Part shown: piece after piece, positions 12,163 to 23,080 of the stretch
Layout of the letters: each line of letters begins with the position of its first letter
Numbering within the stretch: the stretch's first letter is position 1
Position numbers and translations under genes: made by a program
The notes under the pieces: generated by a model
Told to the model about the DNA's origin: nothing
Database searches by the model: none
The model's input: only the letters and a program-made list of their open reading frames with translations
From: the human T2T-CHM13v2.0 reference genome, Homo sapiens
NCBI RefSeq assembly: GCF_009914755.1
Contig: NC_060936.1
Strand: one strand, 5' to 3'
Length of the DNA: 64,000 nucleotides

Positions 12163-12327
12163 CTAATCTGCTTCCATTTCTGGGCATTGCCATGAAGGAG
12201 CCAAGGCTCCCTCCAATAACACTGTGTGGTCTCCGCAATGGGGGCTTCTTGAAAGATCCTGTGTACTGGTGGAGGAAGGAATGCATACTGTGAGACGTTG
12301 GAGGCCTGCCATTCTTCACAATAGGCT
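12163..12327 (-). CDS. CDK17: CDK17 exon 3, (E)PIVKNGRPPTSHSMHSFLHQYTGSFKKPPLRRPHSVIGGSLGSFMAMPRNGSRL(D)
   Basis: ORF track 12125..12319; acceptor ccacag|AG, donor TTAG|gtaatt; 165 nt, phase 1-1, in frame with exons 2 and 4. Confidence 0.97.
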
Positions 12328-12700
12328 CTGTGGTTCATAGAATTCGAAAATCATTCCATCATCAGTCCAAGATCCAGGATCACATGAGAAGGATTCAGAA
12401 AGCAAAACAAAAAGTTGTAACAGAGATTAGTACATTTAGCCTCATTGCTTTGCTTAACTATACACAGTATTAAAATTAAAATAGTTTCTCTGAAAAAATA
12501 CTTAAGAAAATACTTGAATATTTTAAGTTGGTCTAATAACCATCTATTTCTTATATAATCAAAAGTGGCTAAGAACCACAAAACTACTAATATACCCAAC
12601 CAAATTTTCATCCATTTGTTTATTTTAGTGTATCTCAAGATTGTTTCCATACCACTCCTCCATTTATTGACTACCTGTGTGCCTTATTTTAAGCATGCTT

Positions 12701-13001
12701 GGCTGGGTGCATGGCTCACACCTGTAATCCCAGCACTTTGGGAGGCCGAGGCAGGCGGATCACCTGAGGTCAGGAGTTTGAGACCAGTCTGATCAATATG
12801 GTGAAACTCCATCTCTACTAAAAACACAAAAACTAGCTGGGCATGGTGGCATGCGCCTGTAGTCCCAGCTACTCAAGAGGCTGAGACAGGAGAACTGCTT
12901 GAACCCGGGTTGCAGAGGTTGCAGTGAGCCAAGATCACGCCACTGCACTCCATCCTAAGCGACAGAGCAAGACTCCGTCTCAAAAAGAAAAAAAAAAAGA
13001 A
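12701..13001 (+). mobile_element. AluS-like
   Basis: Full Alu, TSD ttaagcatgctt. Confidence 0.93.
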
Positions 13002-13441
13002 ATTAAGCATGCTTTAGAATATAAAAGACATGGTCCCGGCCTAAAGGAATTTACATCCCTGTTTGCTGGACATTCAAAATGGTATGTCAATTAGTGAATA
13101 AAACCGAAGTACCTAAATACATATCAATACAGAGGCTCCAAGTTTATTCCCCTGAATTTGGGATTAATATAAAGAGTTTTTAAACAATCACAGACCCATA
13201 ACCAAGCAGAAACATTAAAAAAATATAATACTTAAAAGCTATTTAATTATGCATGGGGGAGAAACTGTTTTGTAATGTTTATCAGGAATCTCTTGACTCC
13301 TTTCCACCTCCAAAGAAGAGCTCTGATACAGGTTAAAGATACAAGTCTTGTGATACACAATTAGTCTTCTATATTAGAATTTTGTTTTTACTGATAGCAG
13401 CCAAGGAGTTTTAAAAAGAACTGGGCTGCTCTGAATACCTT

Positions 13442-13591
13442 CTTTTTAAAATGAAGCCAACTATTCTTCTGTAGCTAACAATCAGGCATAAGGATACCTC
13501 CTGATCAGGGGATTCCTTTTTAAAATGAAGCCAACTATTCTTCTGCAGTTAACAATCAGGCATAAGGATACCTCCTGATCAGGGGATTCCT
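13442..13591. repeat. 74-bp tandem duplication, 2 copies, 2 mismatches
   Basis: 13442-13515 vs 13516-13589. Confidence 0.95.
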
Positions 13592-14091
13592 CTACCTGTT
13601 TCTCAACTAAGGTTTCTCAACTAAGGACAGGTTGACAGGAGTTGGCTACAAGCCTTAAAGTGAAAGGCTTCTCTCACAAGAAAATCTTAGGATCCGCAGA
13701 ACAGGACCAGGGTATGGGCTCCAGAGAAATGGGCCAAGAAGGCCATGTGGCCTGAGCCTCTACGAATACTGGTTGCCTAAAAGGGTATAAGAAGGATGGG
13801 GCATAAGGGCCCAAAGGCTCACCCAAGGTCCAAGCTATCTAATCTGGGTCAAAGACAGACTGGAGGTAGGGGCAAATGCCTACCTAGTAATACAGAACAT
13901 GTGTCTAAAGTTTCCTGTGATCTGTACATTCCCTGGCAGTACCTAACTGATAAAGAATTTGGGGATCTTAAGTGAAGCAAAATAATCAATGATTTAATAA
14001 TGAATGAAGAGGGGCTATCTGATATAAATGCATAAATAATTACAAACAATGTGGGATAATACAGGCTACAGCATACAATAAGATTTTTCTC

Positions 14092-14258
14092 AGCCAAGCA
14101 TGATGGCATGCACCTGTAGTCCCAGCTACTCAGGAGGCTAGAGTGGGAGGATCACTTGTGCCCAGGAGTTTGCGGCTGCAGTGAGCTAAGATAATGCCAC
14201 TGCATTCCAGCCTGGGTGGCAAAGTAATACCCTGTCTCAAGAAAGAGAAAAGAAAAAT
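14092..14258 (+). mobile_element. Alu right monomer (FRAM/AluJ-like)
   Basis: Single arm with A-rich tail, flanked by aagattttt. Confidence 0.85.
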
Positions 14259-20134: not shown

Positions 20135-20527
20135 ACTGTTATGTGCCATGTGACGTTTCAGACAATGACAGACATCATATACAACAGTGGTCTCATAAGA
20201 TTATAATGGACCTGAAAAACTCCTATAGCCTAGTGATGCCAGTGATGCCACACCCGCTGTAACATAGTAGCACAATGCATTTCCTTTTCTATGTTTAGAT
20301 ACACTTAGATACACAAACACCATTGTGTTACAACTACCTACAGTATTCAGTACCATAATACACTGTACAGGTTTGTAGCCTATAAGTAACAGGTTGTACC
20401 ATGTAGGCTAGGTGTGTAGTAAGCTATACTACCTAGTTTTGATATACTCTGATGTTTGCACAATGATGAAATGGCCTAATAACGTATCTCTCAGAATGCA
20501 TCCCCACTGTTAAGCAATGCATGACTG
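20135..20527 (+). mobile_element. Tigger3-family (MER7-like) element
   Basis: cataagattataatgga...gtacaggtttgtagccta...gcatgactg|ta. Confidence 0.8.
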
Positions 20528-21597
20528 TATATTCCTCCTACTCCTTCAGCTAGCATTATGCTACTATTTGGCATTAAAGCTCACTTTTGCTTCATAAACT
20601 GCTTACATTGTATGTGAGAAGATAACTTTAAAAGTATATACGTGTCATTCATTATGCTATATTCTCTGTATTCTGGCATGGACTGTGTCTGTGTATGTGA
20701 CCTGTCTAACAGCTTTTATACTCTAAAATATGTTCCACAAGAAAAGAATGTGTTGGAATCAGCTATCAGGCACTGACAGGTGACCAAAAAGGTGTAGAAT
20801 CTCTGTGAAAGCTGTTGGTGAAATCCATGTGCTATTACAGAGAGAAAATAAGCATAGTAGATTATGGTAGCCTATGCTACTAGCAATCTTTGTAACCCAA
20901 GAGGAATCAATGTCTCTTATGACGTCTTGAAGTATTACTTCAAGGTCAAGGAGAAACTCAATAGATCGCCTATTTGCCCTTATTTACTACCTATTAAAAG
21001 TTACTACTGTAATAAAATAAGTTTTAAAAAACATATACAACTTGAGAAAACAAATATTTTTAATCTTTCACCATTTGTTAAAAACAAAGCATGTTTTATG
21101 ATAGTTAATACCAAAATATTCTAGAAAATATGCAATTGGTCTAAAATATTAGCTAAAACATACGTTCATTTTCTTTGACTCATATCTTTTCTTTAGGAAA
21201 AGAGGATTGTCTTGTAGTCAAATACTAAAAATATGTCCCAGAAACCAACCACTAAGATATATACTGTGTTTATTTTATTCCTGATCATCATTGGCAAACA
21301 CATTGGCAAGACCCTTCTATCCTAAGAGTAGGCACACTGCGCTTCCCACCAAAAATTCAATGGGGGGGGGTCCCACCAAAAATTCAATGAGGGGGTCTAA
21401 AAGAGAATTAAGGATTTTGCTCTGTGTATCTAGAATAGGTCCTCTGGCAAGAGGAACAACAGTAAAATCATGATGTTTGAGATTTGACCCAAATGTACAA
21501 TTTTCCCCTCCTACATATAATTATATCCAAATTATTATATTAAATTTCCTACTGAGCCCATCCCTCTCTCCTCCCCACCATGACAAAAACAAAACAA

Positions 21598-21902
21598 GGC
21601 CAGGCGTGGTGGCTCACACCTGTAATCCCAGCACTTTGGGAGGTCGAGGCAGGCAGATCACTTGAGGTCAGGAGTTCAAGACTAGCCTGGTCAACATGGT
21701 GAAACCCCAACCCCATCCCTACTAAAAATAATAAAAAACTTAGCTGGGCATGGTGGCCCATGCCTGTAATCCCAGCTGCTCAGGAGGCTGAGGCAGGAGA
21801 ATCACTTGAACCCAGGAGGTGGAGGTTGCAGTGAGCCAACATTGTGCCACTGCACTCCAGCCTGGGCAGCAGAGCGAGACTGTCTCAAAAAAAAAAAAAA
21901 AA
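21598..21902 (+). mobile_element. AluS-like
   Basis: Full Alu with poly(A). Confidence 0.93.
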
Positions 21903-22933
21903 GGTAGATGTTATCAAGGAAAACCTTAACAAATGAATGAAAGGGTCCTTGCAGAACAGTAGCATTGTTATAGACTCTGAAGTGAAGAAACCTGGGTTCT
22001 AAAGTACTGGTTCTGGAGCTGGGTAACCTTGAGCAAATAATGACCCTTCTGAGTAAAGGAAATAAGAAAACTGAAGCCTGGGTAGAATAAACGGCTTAGC
22101 CAGTCATCAACTAGGAAGTGTTTAAGTGTATCCAAAATCCAAACCTATGACTTTAAAAAGTCCAGAGCCCACTCCACTATACCTTTTCCTCTCTCAAAAC
22201 ATAAGTATGTGCATTCTAGTGGAAGGGGTAAGGGTGTCCATGCTTTCCAGCCACTGCCACAAATCTCTAACAGCAGAATTTCAGGCACAGGTAAGGAAGA
22301 TCTGCCAGATACTCTGCACATCATGACACACTGAAAGCCAGTCACGTAAGTTCCTTCCCAGTTACTACTATGACATCCCTAGGGCTATTTCAGATTTGAA
22401 TATGTAGCCTTCCTCTAGAAATTTCACCAGGATTTTGTATTTAACACACTTAACAAGCTCTTTTTATTTTAACATCTGGATACTACTACTTTATGTTGTA
22501 AAAAGCACTGTCAAATGCATGAAACATTATGAAACTGATGAAGCCACAAACAGAAATTTCACAGACTTCCTATGCACTTTTAAGCTGTATTAACTTGGGT
22601 TATAAGAATAAAAAAAATTAATAGTTATTTAACAATCAAGATAATATTATAAAATGCATTCTTCTTTAAGAACTAGTGAAAAATGGAAGGATATGTGGAA
22701 TAGAACAATTCATCAGGGTTTGAGACCAGGTATCGTAATGTTGGAGTGAGAGGGAAATATTCCAGTTAGTAACCAAACAAAAGTTATATAGTCTTCAATT
22801 TCCTAAGAAACCATGGAATGAGACAGAAATAAACAAAGGGAAGCTATTATGAACTTATCTAAAAAGTAAATTTACATTCTATTCATAAAGTAATTAAAAG
22901 GAGGAAGCATCTCCCCCTATGCCAAATATTTAC

Positions 22934-23051
22934 CATTATCCTTGCTGCTGTTTTCTTCAATAGTCATTTGTTCAGCCAATTCAGACAATGATTCATCAAT
23001 AGTCTGACTTCCTCGGAGTGTGAGGGATAGCCTTCTCTTAAATTTTTTCAT
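22934..23051 (-). CDS. CDK17: CDK17 first coding exon (exon 2), aa 1-39 MKKFKRRLSLTLRGSQTIDESLSELAEQMTIEENSSKDN(E)
   Basis: Manual translation matches the recalled CDK17 N-terminus; ATG at 23051; donor AATG|gtaaat at 22934/22933; 118 nt, phase 1. Confidence 0.97.
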
Positions 23052-23080
23052 CCTATCAATTGAATGTGGCTTGAAAAATC
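23052..23080 (-). other. CDK17: 5' UTR part of CDK17 exon 2 (29 nt)
   Basis: Acceptor ttcttttctttcag|GATTTTTC at 23081/23080, just upstream of the ATG. Confidence 0.88.

What the first reader, a model, noticed from the sequence alone, without database searches (positions are those of the whole stretch)
12163..23080. Exon 2+3 circle would be 312 nt with the start codon and no stop: an endless ORF
Seen: exon 2 (147 nt) plus exon 3 (165 nt) = 312 nt = 104 codons. Back-splicing joins ...AGA TTA G| to |GA TTT TTC AAG CCA CAT TCA ATT GAT AGG ATG, so the 29-nt UTR reads GFFKPHSIDR straight back into the ATG without a stop. Exon 2 alone (49 codons) behaves the same way. Both flanking introns are long (10.5 kb and >40 kb). 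Established: circRNAs often arise from early exons with long flanking introns, and stop-less circles can support rolling-circle translation. From memory a circCDK17 has been reported; its exon content needs checking. Inference: a concatemer of the CDK17 N-terminal region could be produced, and circularisation would also divert the AUG exon from linear mRNA.
Basis: partly seen in the sequence, partly recalled or inferred. Interest (0 to 1): 0.8.

Follow-up and report, generated by a model that had tools for sequence, protein, structure and literature searches.

The report
Known CDK17 circular RNA, stop-less frame
Exons 2 and 3 of CDK17 do form a 312-base circular RNA with a start codon and no stop, but this circle is already a catalogued, abundant circRNA, its endless frame is a common chance property, and nothing found shows that it is translated.

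Summary
On the minus strand, exon 2 (23080..22934, 147 nt) plus exon 3 (12327..12163, 165 nt) gives 312 nt. Read as a circle from the annotated ATG, the frame has no stop.

The circle is real and already known. Two cervical-cancer papers target exactly this exon 3-to-exon 2 junction as circCDK17 / circ_101119 / hsa_circ_0002762. Stagsted 2019 lists the same 10,918-nt span as an "AUG circRNA" with 7,605 ENCODE junction reads, about row 357 of its table.

The endless frame is not special. It needs a length divisible by three and 10 stop-free codons, and 49-58% of control 29-mers pass the second condition. Published rates are 8% of AUG circRNAs and 14% of all circRNAs.

I found no evidence of translation. 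Pooled Ribo-seq and proteomics on the top 1,000 circles were negative. CDK17 is absent from the held supplements of a 990-junction peptide study.

The exon-2-only circle has 3 reads. The second CDK17 circle, exons 2-5 (572 nt), has a finite frame.

Verdict: a correct prediction of a known object; the translation claim is untested and unlikely.

The parts
22934..23080 (-). CDK17 exon 2 (147 nt): 29-nt 5'UTR part (23080..23052) plus the first 118 coding nt. This is the 5' exon of the circle and its acceptor takes part in the back-splice.
   Evidence: A pyrimidine tract and AG lie just upstream (23081-23082). hg19 exon size 147.
23049..23051 (-). Annotated CDK17 start codon, with A at -3 and A at +4. 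It is the only start of the host ORF and is carried into the circle.
   Evidence: (sequence context printed), plus the hub annotation (coding 22934-23051).
12163..12327 (-). CDK17 exon 3 (165 nt, all coding). This is the 3' exon of the circle and its donor (GT at 12162..12161) takes part in the back-splice.
   Evidence: The published forward primers lie at its 3' end (12169-12187; text).
12328..22933 (-). Intron 2 (10,606 nt), removed from inside the circle if the circle is the annotated 312-nt form.
   Evidence: An exon offset of 10,771 in hg19 equals the window spacing. The internal composition was not verified by long reads.
1670..12162 (-). Intron 3 (10,493 nt), the downstream flanking intron of the back-splice.
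   Evidence: The hg19 flank chr12:96707232-96717725 is 10,493 nt.
23081..64000 (-). Proximal 40.9 kb of intron 1 (65,120 nt in all), the upstream flanking intron of the back-splice.
   Evidence: The hg19 flank chr12:96728643-96793763 is 65,120 nt.
26773..26894 (.). Upstream arm of the nearest inverted-repeat pair flanking the circle (122 bp, 82% identity), 3,692 nt from the exon 2 acceptor.
   Evidence: blastn of the window part of intron 1 against intron 3; 22 of 56 pairs were inverted.
11377..11496 (.). Downstream arm of that pair, 666 nt from the exon 3 donor. The summed distance of 4,358 nt lies beyond the 2,300-nt cut-off that Stagsted 2019 used for Alu-dependent circles.
1536..1669 (-). 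Exon 4 (134 nt), part of the rarer circles of exons 2-4 (446 nt) and exons 2-5 (572 nt). In both, the frame from the ATG ends at a TGA 10 codons after the junction.
   Evidence: Read counts are 56 and 2,072. Exon 5 size of 126 nt comes; exon 5 lies outside the window and was not read.

Best explanation
The donor of CDK17 exon 3 is back-spliced to the acceptor of exon 2, giving a 312-nt exonic circle. This is the already catalogued circCDK17 (hsa_circ_0002762, circ_101119), the dominant circle of the gene and a typical 'AUG circRNA'. It carries the host start codon and lies between very long introns (65.1 kb and 10.5 kb), with no close inverted repeats. Because 312 is divisible by three and the 10 codons across the junction and 5'UTR happen to lack a stop, the host frame closes on itself. 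I read that as an incidental property of an RNA that is essentially not translated. Shown: the exon anatomy, the stop-less frame, the published junction and the read counts. Inferred: biogenesis through long introns, and the lack of meaningful translation.
For: Identity with the published circle:
- The 21-nt siRNA printed in PMC8848895 equals the last 15 nt of exon 3 followed by the first 6 nt of exon 2 (one search compared).
- That paper reports RNase R resistance.
- The hsa_circ_0002762 primers of PMC8483823 map divergently at 12169-12187(-) and 23010-23030(+).

Abundance and class:
- Stagsted 2019 Table S2 lists chr12:96717725-96728643 (10,918 nt, the same span as window 12163..23080) as an 'AUG circRNA' with 7,605 junction reads, row 357 by my hand count.
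- The other CDK17 circles have far fewer reads: 2,072 (exons 2-5), 56 (exons 2-4) and 3 (exon 2 alone).
- The circle is also a high-confidence circRNA in megakaryocytes, and a circCDK17 is detected in plasma.

Chance:
- 49-58% of control 29-mers are stop-free.
- Infinite ORFs occur in 8% of AUG circRNAs and host-frame rolling-circle ORFs in 14% of circRNAs.

No special translation signals:
- Circular fold -66.9 kcal/mol against -66.6 +/- 5.1 for 200 shuffles (z = -0.06).
- 5 DRACH motifs against about 5.5 expected by my arithmetic.

Negative translation data:
- In the pooled analysis of about 500 human Ribo-seq samples over the top 1,000 circles, no circle showed significant in-frame junction reads.
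- 35 million spectra gave no circRNA peptides better than decoys.
- CDK17, its coordinates and the junction peptide have 0 hits in the 4 held supplement files of Fan 2022.
Against: No experiment has tested this particular circle for translation, so the negatives are indirect.
- That the circle was among Stagsted's top 1,000 is my inference from table order. Their ORF-conservation analysis left infinite ORFs out.
- Synthetic circles of 129-387 nt with a Kozak AUG and an infinite ORF were translated in reticulocyte lysate, and the 129- and 258-nt ones also in HeLa cells, all without an IRES. This circle has A at -3 and lies in that size range.
- Fan 2022 reports that stop-less circles give more product and are over-represented among circles with peptide evidence.
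- The repeat unit has five in-frame Met codons, so any internal start in that frame gives the same endless product.
- The 312-nt internal composition rests on annotation, not on long reads.
Confidence: 0.8

Rival explanations
1. The circle is translated by rolling-circle translation. A ribosome that starts at the host AUG, or at one of four further in-frame AUGs, keeps going round. It makes concatemers of a 104-residue basic unit (11.8 kDa, pI 10.5) from the CDK17 N-terminal region. The products are either quickly degraded or act on partners of that region.
For: The frame is stop-less and the AUG has A at -3. Synthetic circles of similar size with infinite ORFs are translated without an IRES. 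Endogenous rolling-circle ORF circles (circPSAP, circPFAS, circABHD12) gave ladders from tagged reporters. Circ-EGFR is reported to do this in glioblastoma (review passage). One copy of AAGAAG, a hexamer Fan 2022 found to drive circPFAS translation, lies at position 225 of the circle.
Against: No junction peptide or footprint evidence was found for this circle. One AAGAAG is uninformative, because 97 such hexamers would give about 7 hits by chance in 312 nt (my arithmetic). DRACH count and folding energy are at chance level. A study of platelets found no junction peptide among 192,743 peptides. The property is expected by chance in roughly 1 of 5-6 such circles.
Confidence: 0.1
2. The circle acts as a microRNA sponge, as published: miR-1294 to YWHAZ, and miR-122-5p to ASF1B, in cervical cancer.
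For: PMC8848895 reports knock-down phenotypes with a junction siRNA and a miR-1294 interaction (abstract and passages). The circle holds one seed match to the miR-1294 sequence printed there: a 6-mer at position 56 followed by A. The miR-122-5p paper is known to me only as a reference-list entry.
Against: There is only a single 7-mer-type site, and no 7mer-m8 site, in a 312-nt RNA of modest abundance. One site per circle gives little sponging capacity (established reasoning, not tested here). The luciferase and pull-down data of those papers were not examined in detail.
Confidence: 0.1
3. The main effect is on the host gene. Each back-splice removes the AUG exon from that pre-mRNA, so circle production lowers the output of full-length CDK17 mRNA, leaving at best an exon 1-exon 4 transcript.
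For: Competition between back-splicing and linear splicing is established knowledge and is cited in passages. The circle contains the only annotated start codon. Exon 4 has an in-frame ATG, which could start an N-terminally truncated protein.
Against: No circular-to-linear ratio was seen for this circle. A mouse Cdk17 circle of undetermined exon content had 8.5 c.p.m. against 148.7 c.p.m. linear RNA, and its loss in FUS-/- cells left the linear RNA unchanged. No exon 2/3-skipped transcript was looked for or seen here.
Confidence: 0.15

Closest known systems
AUG circRNAs (Stagsted et al. 2019, PMC6487579), e.g. circHIPK3, circSLC8A1, circZNF609
   Same: It contains the host gene's annotated start-codon exon, is abundant, and has flanking introns above 6,500 nt. 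No inverted repeats lie within 2,300 nt summed distance. It is listed by name in that paper's Table S2 as 'AUG circRNA'.
   Different: It belongs to the 8% minority whose frame never meets a stop. In most AUG circRNAs the frame ends a median of 10 codons after the junction.
Endogenous rolling-circle-ORF circRNAs circPSAP, circPFAS and circABHD12 (Fan et al. 2022, PMC9242994)
   Same: Length divisible by three, no in-frame stop, and an ORF that overlaps the host protein frame.
   Different: Those have junction-spanning spectra and tagged-reporter ladders. For the CDK17 circle, none was found in the 4 held supplement files.
circ-EGFR / rtEGFR
   Same: An infinite ORF in a circle made from host coding exons. 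Stops in the other two frames (4 and 10 per turn here) could end translation after a frameshift, which is the mechanism proposed for rtEGFR (review passage).
   Different: rtEGFR has a reported product and function. I saw only a review's description, not the primary paper. No such data exist for CDK17.
Synthetic infinite-ORF circles (Abe et al. 2015, PMC4639774)
   Same: Same size range (129-387 nt against 312 nt), an AUG in a usable context, and no IRES required.
   Different: They were made in vitro, designed with AU-rich spacers to limit structure, and transfected in bulk. Circles with higher G+C were translated poorly.
circCDK17 of exons 2-5 (PMC10692360)
   Same: Same gene and same exon 2 acceptor. 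It is also an AUG circRNA (2,072 ENCODE reads) and was validated by Sanger sequencing of the junction.
   Different: It is 572 nt (exon sizes 126, 134, 165, 147), which is not divisible by three. From the ATG, 181 codons reach the junction, and the frame then ends after 10 more codons at a TGA. This is my arithmetic combined with the tail seen for the same phase. That paper describes it as binding ADAR1/PCNA and carrying m1A, not as coding.

Membership tests
Exonic circular RNA (back-splice product) | Back-splice junction joins an annotated donor to an upstream annotated acceptor with canonical GT/AG | tested here: met
   AG lies before exon 2 and GT after exon 3. Published junction coordinates span 10,918 nt, the same as the window span. 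The published siRNA equals the exon 3 end plus the exon 2 start.
Exonic circular RNA (back-splice product) | Junction reads in RNA-seq and resistance to RNase R | not testable with these tools
   Taken from papers only: 7,605 ENCODE junction reads and RNase R resistance reported in C-33A and HeLa cells.
AUG circRNA (Stagsted 2019) | Contains the annotated start codon of the host gene | tested here: met
   The ATG at 23051..23049 lies inside exon 2. The circle is labelled 'AUG circRNA' in Table S2.
AUG circRNA (Stagsted 2019) | Long flanking introns (above 6,500 nt) and no inverted repeat pair within 2,300 nt summed distance | tested here: met
   The flanking introns are 10,493 nt and 65,120 nt. 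The nearest inverted pair lies at 4,358 nt. My scan took any blastn inverted match, not annotated Alus only, and covered only the 40.9 kb of intron 1 inside the window.
Rolling-circle / infinite-ORF circRNA | Length divisible by three, an AUG, and no stop in that frame | tested here: met
   312 nt, with 0 stops in the ATG frame over the whole turn. This assumes the annotated two-exon composition.
Rolling-circle / infinite-ORF circRNA | Product shown: junction peptide, phased junction footprints or a concatemer ladder | tested here: inconclusive
   There were 0 hits for CDK17, its coordinates or the junction peptide in the 4 held supplement files of Fan 2022, and none in the 1 held riboCIRC file. 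The pooled analysis of Stagsted 2019 was negative. No experiment aimed at this circle was found.
IRES- or m6A-driven translated circRNA | An internal initiation element beyond chance | tested here: inconclusive
   5 DRACH motifs against about 5.5 expected. One AAGAAG hexamer. Circular folding energy z = -0.06. Methylation itself cannot be tested here.
QKI-dependent circRNA | QKI response motifs (ACUAAY) in both flanking introns near the splice sites | tested here: not met
   0 motifs in the 1 kb upstream of the exon 2 acceptor and 0 in the 1 kb downstream of the exon 3 donor. The window average is 0.36 per kb.

The most novel reading that the evidence does not exclude
In cells where it is abundant (cervical carcinoma, neurons, platelets), the dominant CDK17 circle is translated round and round. 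The product would be concatemers of the kinase's N-terminal regulatory region. Each 104-residue unit carries an R-R-x-S protein kinase A-type motif (RRLS, residues 6-9; the motif is described for PCTAIRE kinases). Such a polymer would be a multivalent decoy for the kinases and, by analogy with CDK16, the 14-3-3 or cyclin Y partners of that region. The knock-down phenotypes published for circCDK17 would then be protein effects, not microRNA sponging.
Probability: 0.06. Interest if true: 0.6.

Novelty: already known. Interest (0 to 1): 0.25.

Why it matters
If the circle were translated, an abundant and widely expressed human circRNA would give a repeat polymer of a kinase regulatory region. That would also re-interpret the published knock-down phenotypes. 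As it stands, the result is mainly a calibration point. Reading sequence alone correctly predicted a real, abundant circRNA and its exact junction. However, a stop-less frame occurs in roughly one circle in seven to twelve and does not by itself indicate translation. The circle is a reasonable, cheap candidate to include in any targeted test of rolling-circle translation, because it is abundant, small and carries a genuine start codon.

Tried and rejected
- **QKI-driven circularisation:** no ACUAAY motif in either relevant 1-kb flank.
- **Alu or inverted-repeat pairing as the driver:** the nearest inverted pair is 4,358 nt away in summed distance, 122 bp at 82% identity.
- **Unusual RNA structure in the circle:** z = -0.06 against 200 mononucleotide shuffles.
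- **m6A motif enrichment:** 5 DRACH motifs, at chance level.
- **Pfam domains in the exon 2 and exon 3 peptides:** 0 families at E up to 1 for the 39-aa and 54-aa pieces.
- **Literature on translation of this circle:**
  - 'cdk17' + 'circrna' + 'rolling circle' found 1 paper, irrelevant to translation.
  - 'circcdk17' + 'peptide' + 'translat' found 16 papers. I checked passages in 2 of them, and neither treats the circle as coding.
  - 'circ-cdk17' found 0 papers.
  - The 'circ_101119' variants found only PMC8848895.
- **Supplements:**
  - The 1 held riboCIRC supplement file had no CDK17.
  - The held supplement of the plasma circRNA paper had no CDK17, so its circCDK17 could not be tied to specific exons.
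  - One supplement file of PMC8906552 could not be searched.
- **Mouse Cdk17 circle** (GRCm38 10:93221587-93239043): its exon content could not be determined here, so conservation of the stop-less frame is untested.
- **Tools and databases not available:**
  - circBase, circAtlas and TransCirc could not be consulted.

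
Full report
**Observation**

On the minus strand, exon 2 runs 23080..22934 (147 nt). It is preceded by a pyrimidine tract and AG, and followed by GT. Exon 3 runs 12327..12163 (165 nt), also with AG before and GT after. The annotated ATG is at 23051..23049, 29 nt into exon 2.

A script that joined the exons from the window file gave a 312-nt circle. 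The ATG frame has no stop over the whole turn, and the other two frames have 4 and 10 stops. The repeat unit is 104 residues, 11.8 kDa, pI 10.5 and serine-rich, with in-frame Met at residues 1, 29, 54, 85 and 87.

Other exon combinations behave as follows:
- Exon 2 alone (147 nt) is stop-less in the coding frame.
- Exon 3 alone (165 nt) is also stop-less in the coding frame.
- Exons 2-4 (446 nt) stop after 149 codons.

Intron lengths are 10,606 nt (intron 2) and 10,493 nt (intron 3). Intron 1 exceeds 40.9 kb within the window and is 65,120 nt by hg19 annotation.

**Is it more than chance?**

Because exons 2 and 3 are coding, the only free conditions are that the total length is a multiple of three and that the 10 codons spanning the junction and the 29-nt UTR lack a stop.
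- 49,310 of 100,000 shuffles of the UTR are stop-free in that frame.
- 36,901 of 63,971 29-mers from the gene strand of the window are stop-free in that frame.
- With one third for the length condition, the chance is about 0.17-0.19.

Published surveys agree in order of magnitude. Infinite ORFs are predicted for 8% of AUG circRNAs in human and mouse (PMC6487579, passages). Host-frame rolling-circle ORFs are predicted for 14% of full-length human circRNAs (PMC9242994, passages).

**The circle is real and already published**

- **PMC8848895** ("circ_101119", named circCDK17; abstract and passages).
  - It prints a 21-nt siRNA that equals the last 15 nt of exon 3 followed by the first 6 nt of exon 2, by comparison.
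  - Its forward primer lies at the exon 3 end and its reverse primer at the exon 2 end.
  - It reports RNase R resistance and up-regulation in cervical cancer, and interprets the RNA as a miR-1294 sponge.
- **PMC8483823** (passages). It lists hsa_circ_0002762 (host CDK17) from the same GEO data set. Its primers map divergently to 12169-12187 on the minus strand and 23010-23030 on the plus strand, so the amplicon crosses the exon 3 to exon 2 junction.
- **Stagsted et al. 2019** (PMC6487579, Table S2, ENCODE, hg19).
  - It lists chr12:96717725-96728643, minus strand, CDK17, with 7,605 junction reads, as an "AUG circRNA". The span of 10,918 nt equals window 12163..23080.
  - By my hand count of the first two parts of the table, it is row 357.
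- **Megakaryocyte data of PMC8906552.** The same circle appears among the high-confidence circles, with exon sizes 165 and 147 and flanking introns of 10,493 and 65,120 nt. The hg19 exon offsets (2,269, 12,896 and 23,667) reproduce the window spacing of exons 4, 3 and 2.
[quoted passage not shown] I could not tie it to specific exons.

**Other circles of the gene**

| Circle | ENCODE junction reads |
|---|---|
| Exons 2-3 | 7,605 |
| Exons 2-5 | 2,072 |
| Exons 2-4 | 56 |
| Exon 2 alone | 3 |
| Exons 3-10 | 19 |
| Exons 3-5 | 5 |

In HEK293 cells the counts are 85 (exons 2-3), 8 (exons 2-5) and 3 (exons 2-4). Ten rows of the held part of Table S2 use the exon 2 acceptor, and I saw four of them.

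The pulmonary-hypertension paper PMC10692360 calls the exon 2-5 circle circCDK17. At 572 nt (sizes 126, 134, 165, 147), 543 nt or 181 codons lie between the ATG and the junction. The frame then reads the UTR in the same phase as the exon 2-4 circle and ends after 10 codons (for that tail). Exon 5 is outside the window and was not read.

So, among the AUG-containing CDK17 circles I saw, only the dominant exon 2-3 circle and the negligible exon-2-only circle are endless.

**How the circle is probably made**

The nearest inverted-repeat pair between the upstream and downstream introns is 122 bp at 82% identity. It lies 3,692 nt upstream and 666 nt downstream, 4,358 nt in sum (22 of 56 blastn pairs were inverted).

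That exceeds the 2,300-nt cut-off Stagsted et al. used for Alu-dependent circles. Both introns exceed their 6,500-nt "long intron" cut-off. The circle thus fits their Alu-independent, long-intron class.

No QKI motif (ACUAAY) lies within 1 kb of either back-splice site, against a window mean of 0.36 per kb. A mouse Cdk17 circle fell in FUS-/- motor neurons while the linear RNA did not change. Its exon content is unknown to me, so this is only a lead.

**Is it translated?**

For:
- The AUG has A at -3.
- Synthetic circles of 129-387 nt with an infinite ORF were translated without an IRES in reticulocyte lysate; the 129- and 258-nt ones were also translated in HeLa cells (PMC4639774, passages).
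- Fan et al. report ladders from three endogenous rolling-circle ORF circles, and an excess of such circles among those with peptide evidence.
- Circ-EGFR is described as making a rolling-circle product (review passage).

Against:
- The circle shows nothing beyond chance that would recruit ribosomes:
  - 5 DRACH motifs against about 5.5 expected.
  - One AAGAAG hexamer.
  - A circular folding energy of -66.9 against -66.6 +/- 5.1 kcal/mol.
- Stagsted et al. mapped about 22 billion human Ribo-seq reads to the junctions of the top 1,000 ENCODE circles and found no phasing. Among circles with 10 or more junction reads, only circUBXN7 showed a non-significant enrichment (section read in full).
- Their search of 35 million spectra gave no circRNA peptides better than decoys.
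- By its table position the CDK17 circle should have been in that set, but this is my inference.
- CDK17, its coordinates and the junction peptide give 0 hits in the 4 held supplement files of Fan et al., who report 990 junctions with spectra.
- In platelets, none of 192,743 peptides matched a circRNA junction.

No paper that I could search treats circCDK17 as coding. Databases that tabulate circRNA ORFs could not be consulted, so the stop-less frame may well be recorded there.

**Judgement**

The finding correctly predicted, from sequence alone, a real and abundant circRNA and its exact junction. The object is already known, and its class (AUG circRNA) has been described, with this circle listed by name.

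The endless frame is a true but common and probably incidental property. Rolling-circle translation remains possible, and I put it near 10% for any detectable level and lower for a functional product.

The published sponge model rests on a single 7-mer-type miR-1294 site.

Diversion of the AUG exon is mechanistically sound but unmeasured for this circle. The one ratio seen, for a mouse Cdk17 circle of undetermined exon content, was low.

Noticed in passing
window 1536-1669 (exon 4, minus strand): If exons 2-3 are removed as a circle, the leftover exon 1-exon 4 transcript would lack the annotated ATG. Exon 4 has an out-of-frame ATG at offset 9 that opens a 3-codon ORF. An in-frame ATG at offset 23 could start an N-terminally truncated CDK17. 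No such transcript was looked for.
   Followed up: partly
window 51380-51496 (+): This is the only Rfam hit at gathering score in the window: Metazoa_SRP, 74.6 bits. It lies inside a stretch masked as repeat (51349-51687), so it is most likely an Alu element (7SL-derived) and not an SRP RNA gene.
   Followed up: no
window 13442-13591 (intron 2): A 74-bp unit is repeated exactly twice in tandem at 97% identity. Its nature is unknown.
   Followed up: no
window 33238-33789 and 9445-9998: This is the longest inverted pair between intron 1 and intron 3: 554 bp at 84.5% identity. It lies 10.2 kb and 2.2 kb from the back-splice sites. The downstream arm falls in a long masked repeat (8353-10214), so it is probably an interspersed-repeat fragment.
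   Followed up: no
window 35781-35875: A pentanucleotide array of AGGGG, 18.6 copies at 86% matches, in intron 1. It reads as C-rich on the gene strand.
   Followed up: no
window 12163-12327 (exon 3): Exon 3 alone (165 nt) would also form a circle with no stop in the coding frame, and it has three in-frame ATGs. In the held, truncated part of the ENCODE table, no row has exon 3's own start and end.
   Followed up: partly
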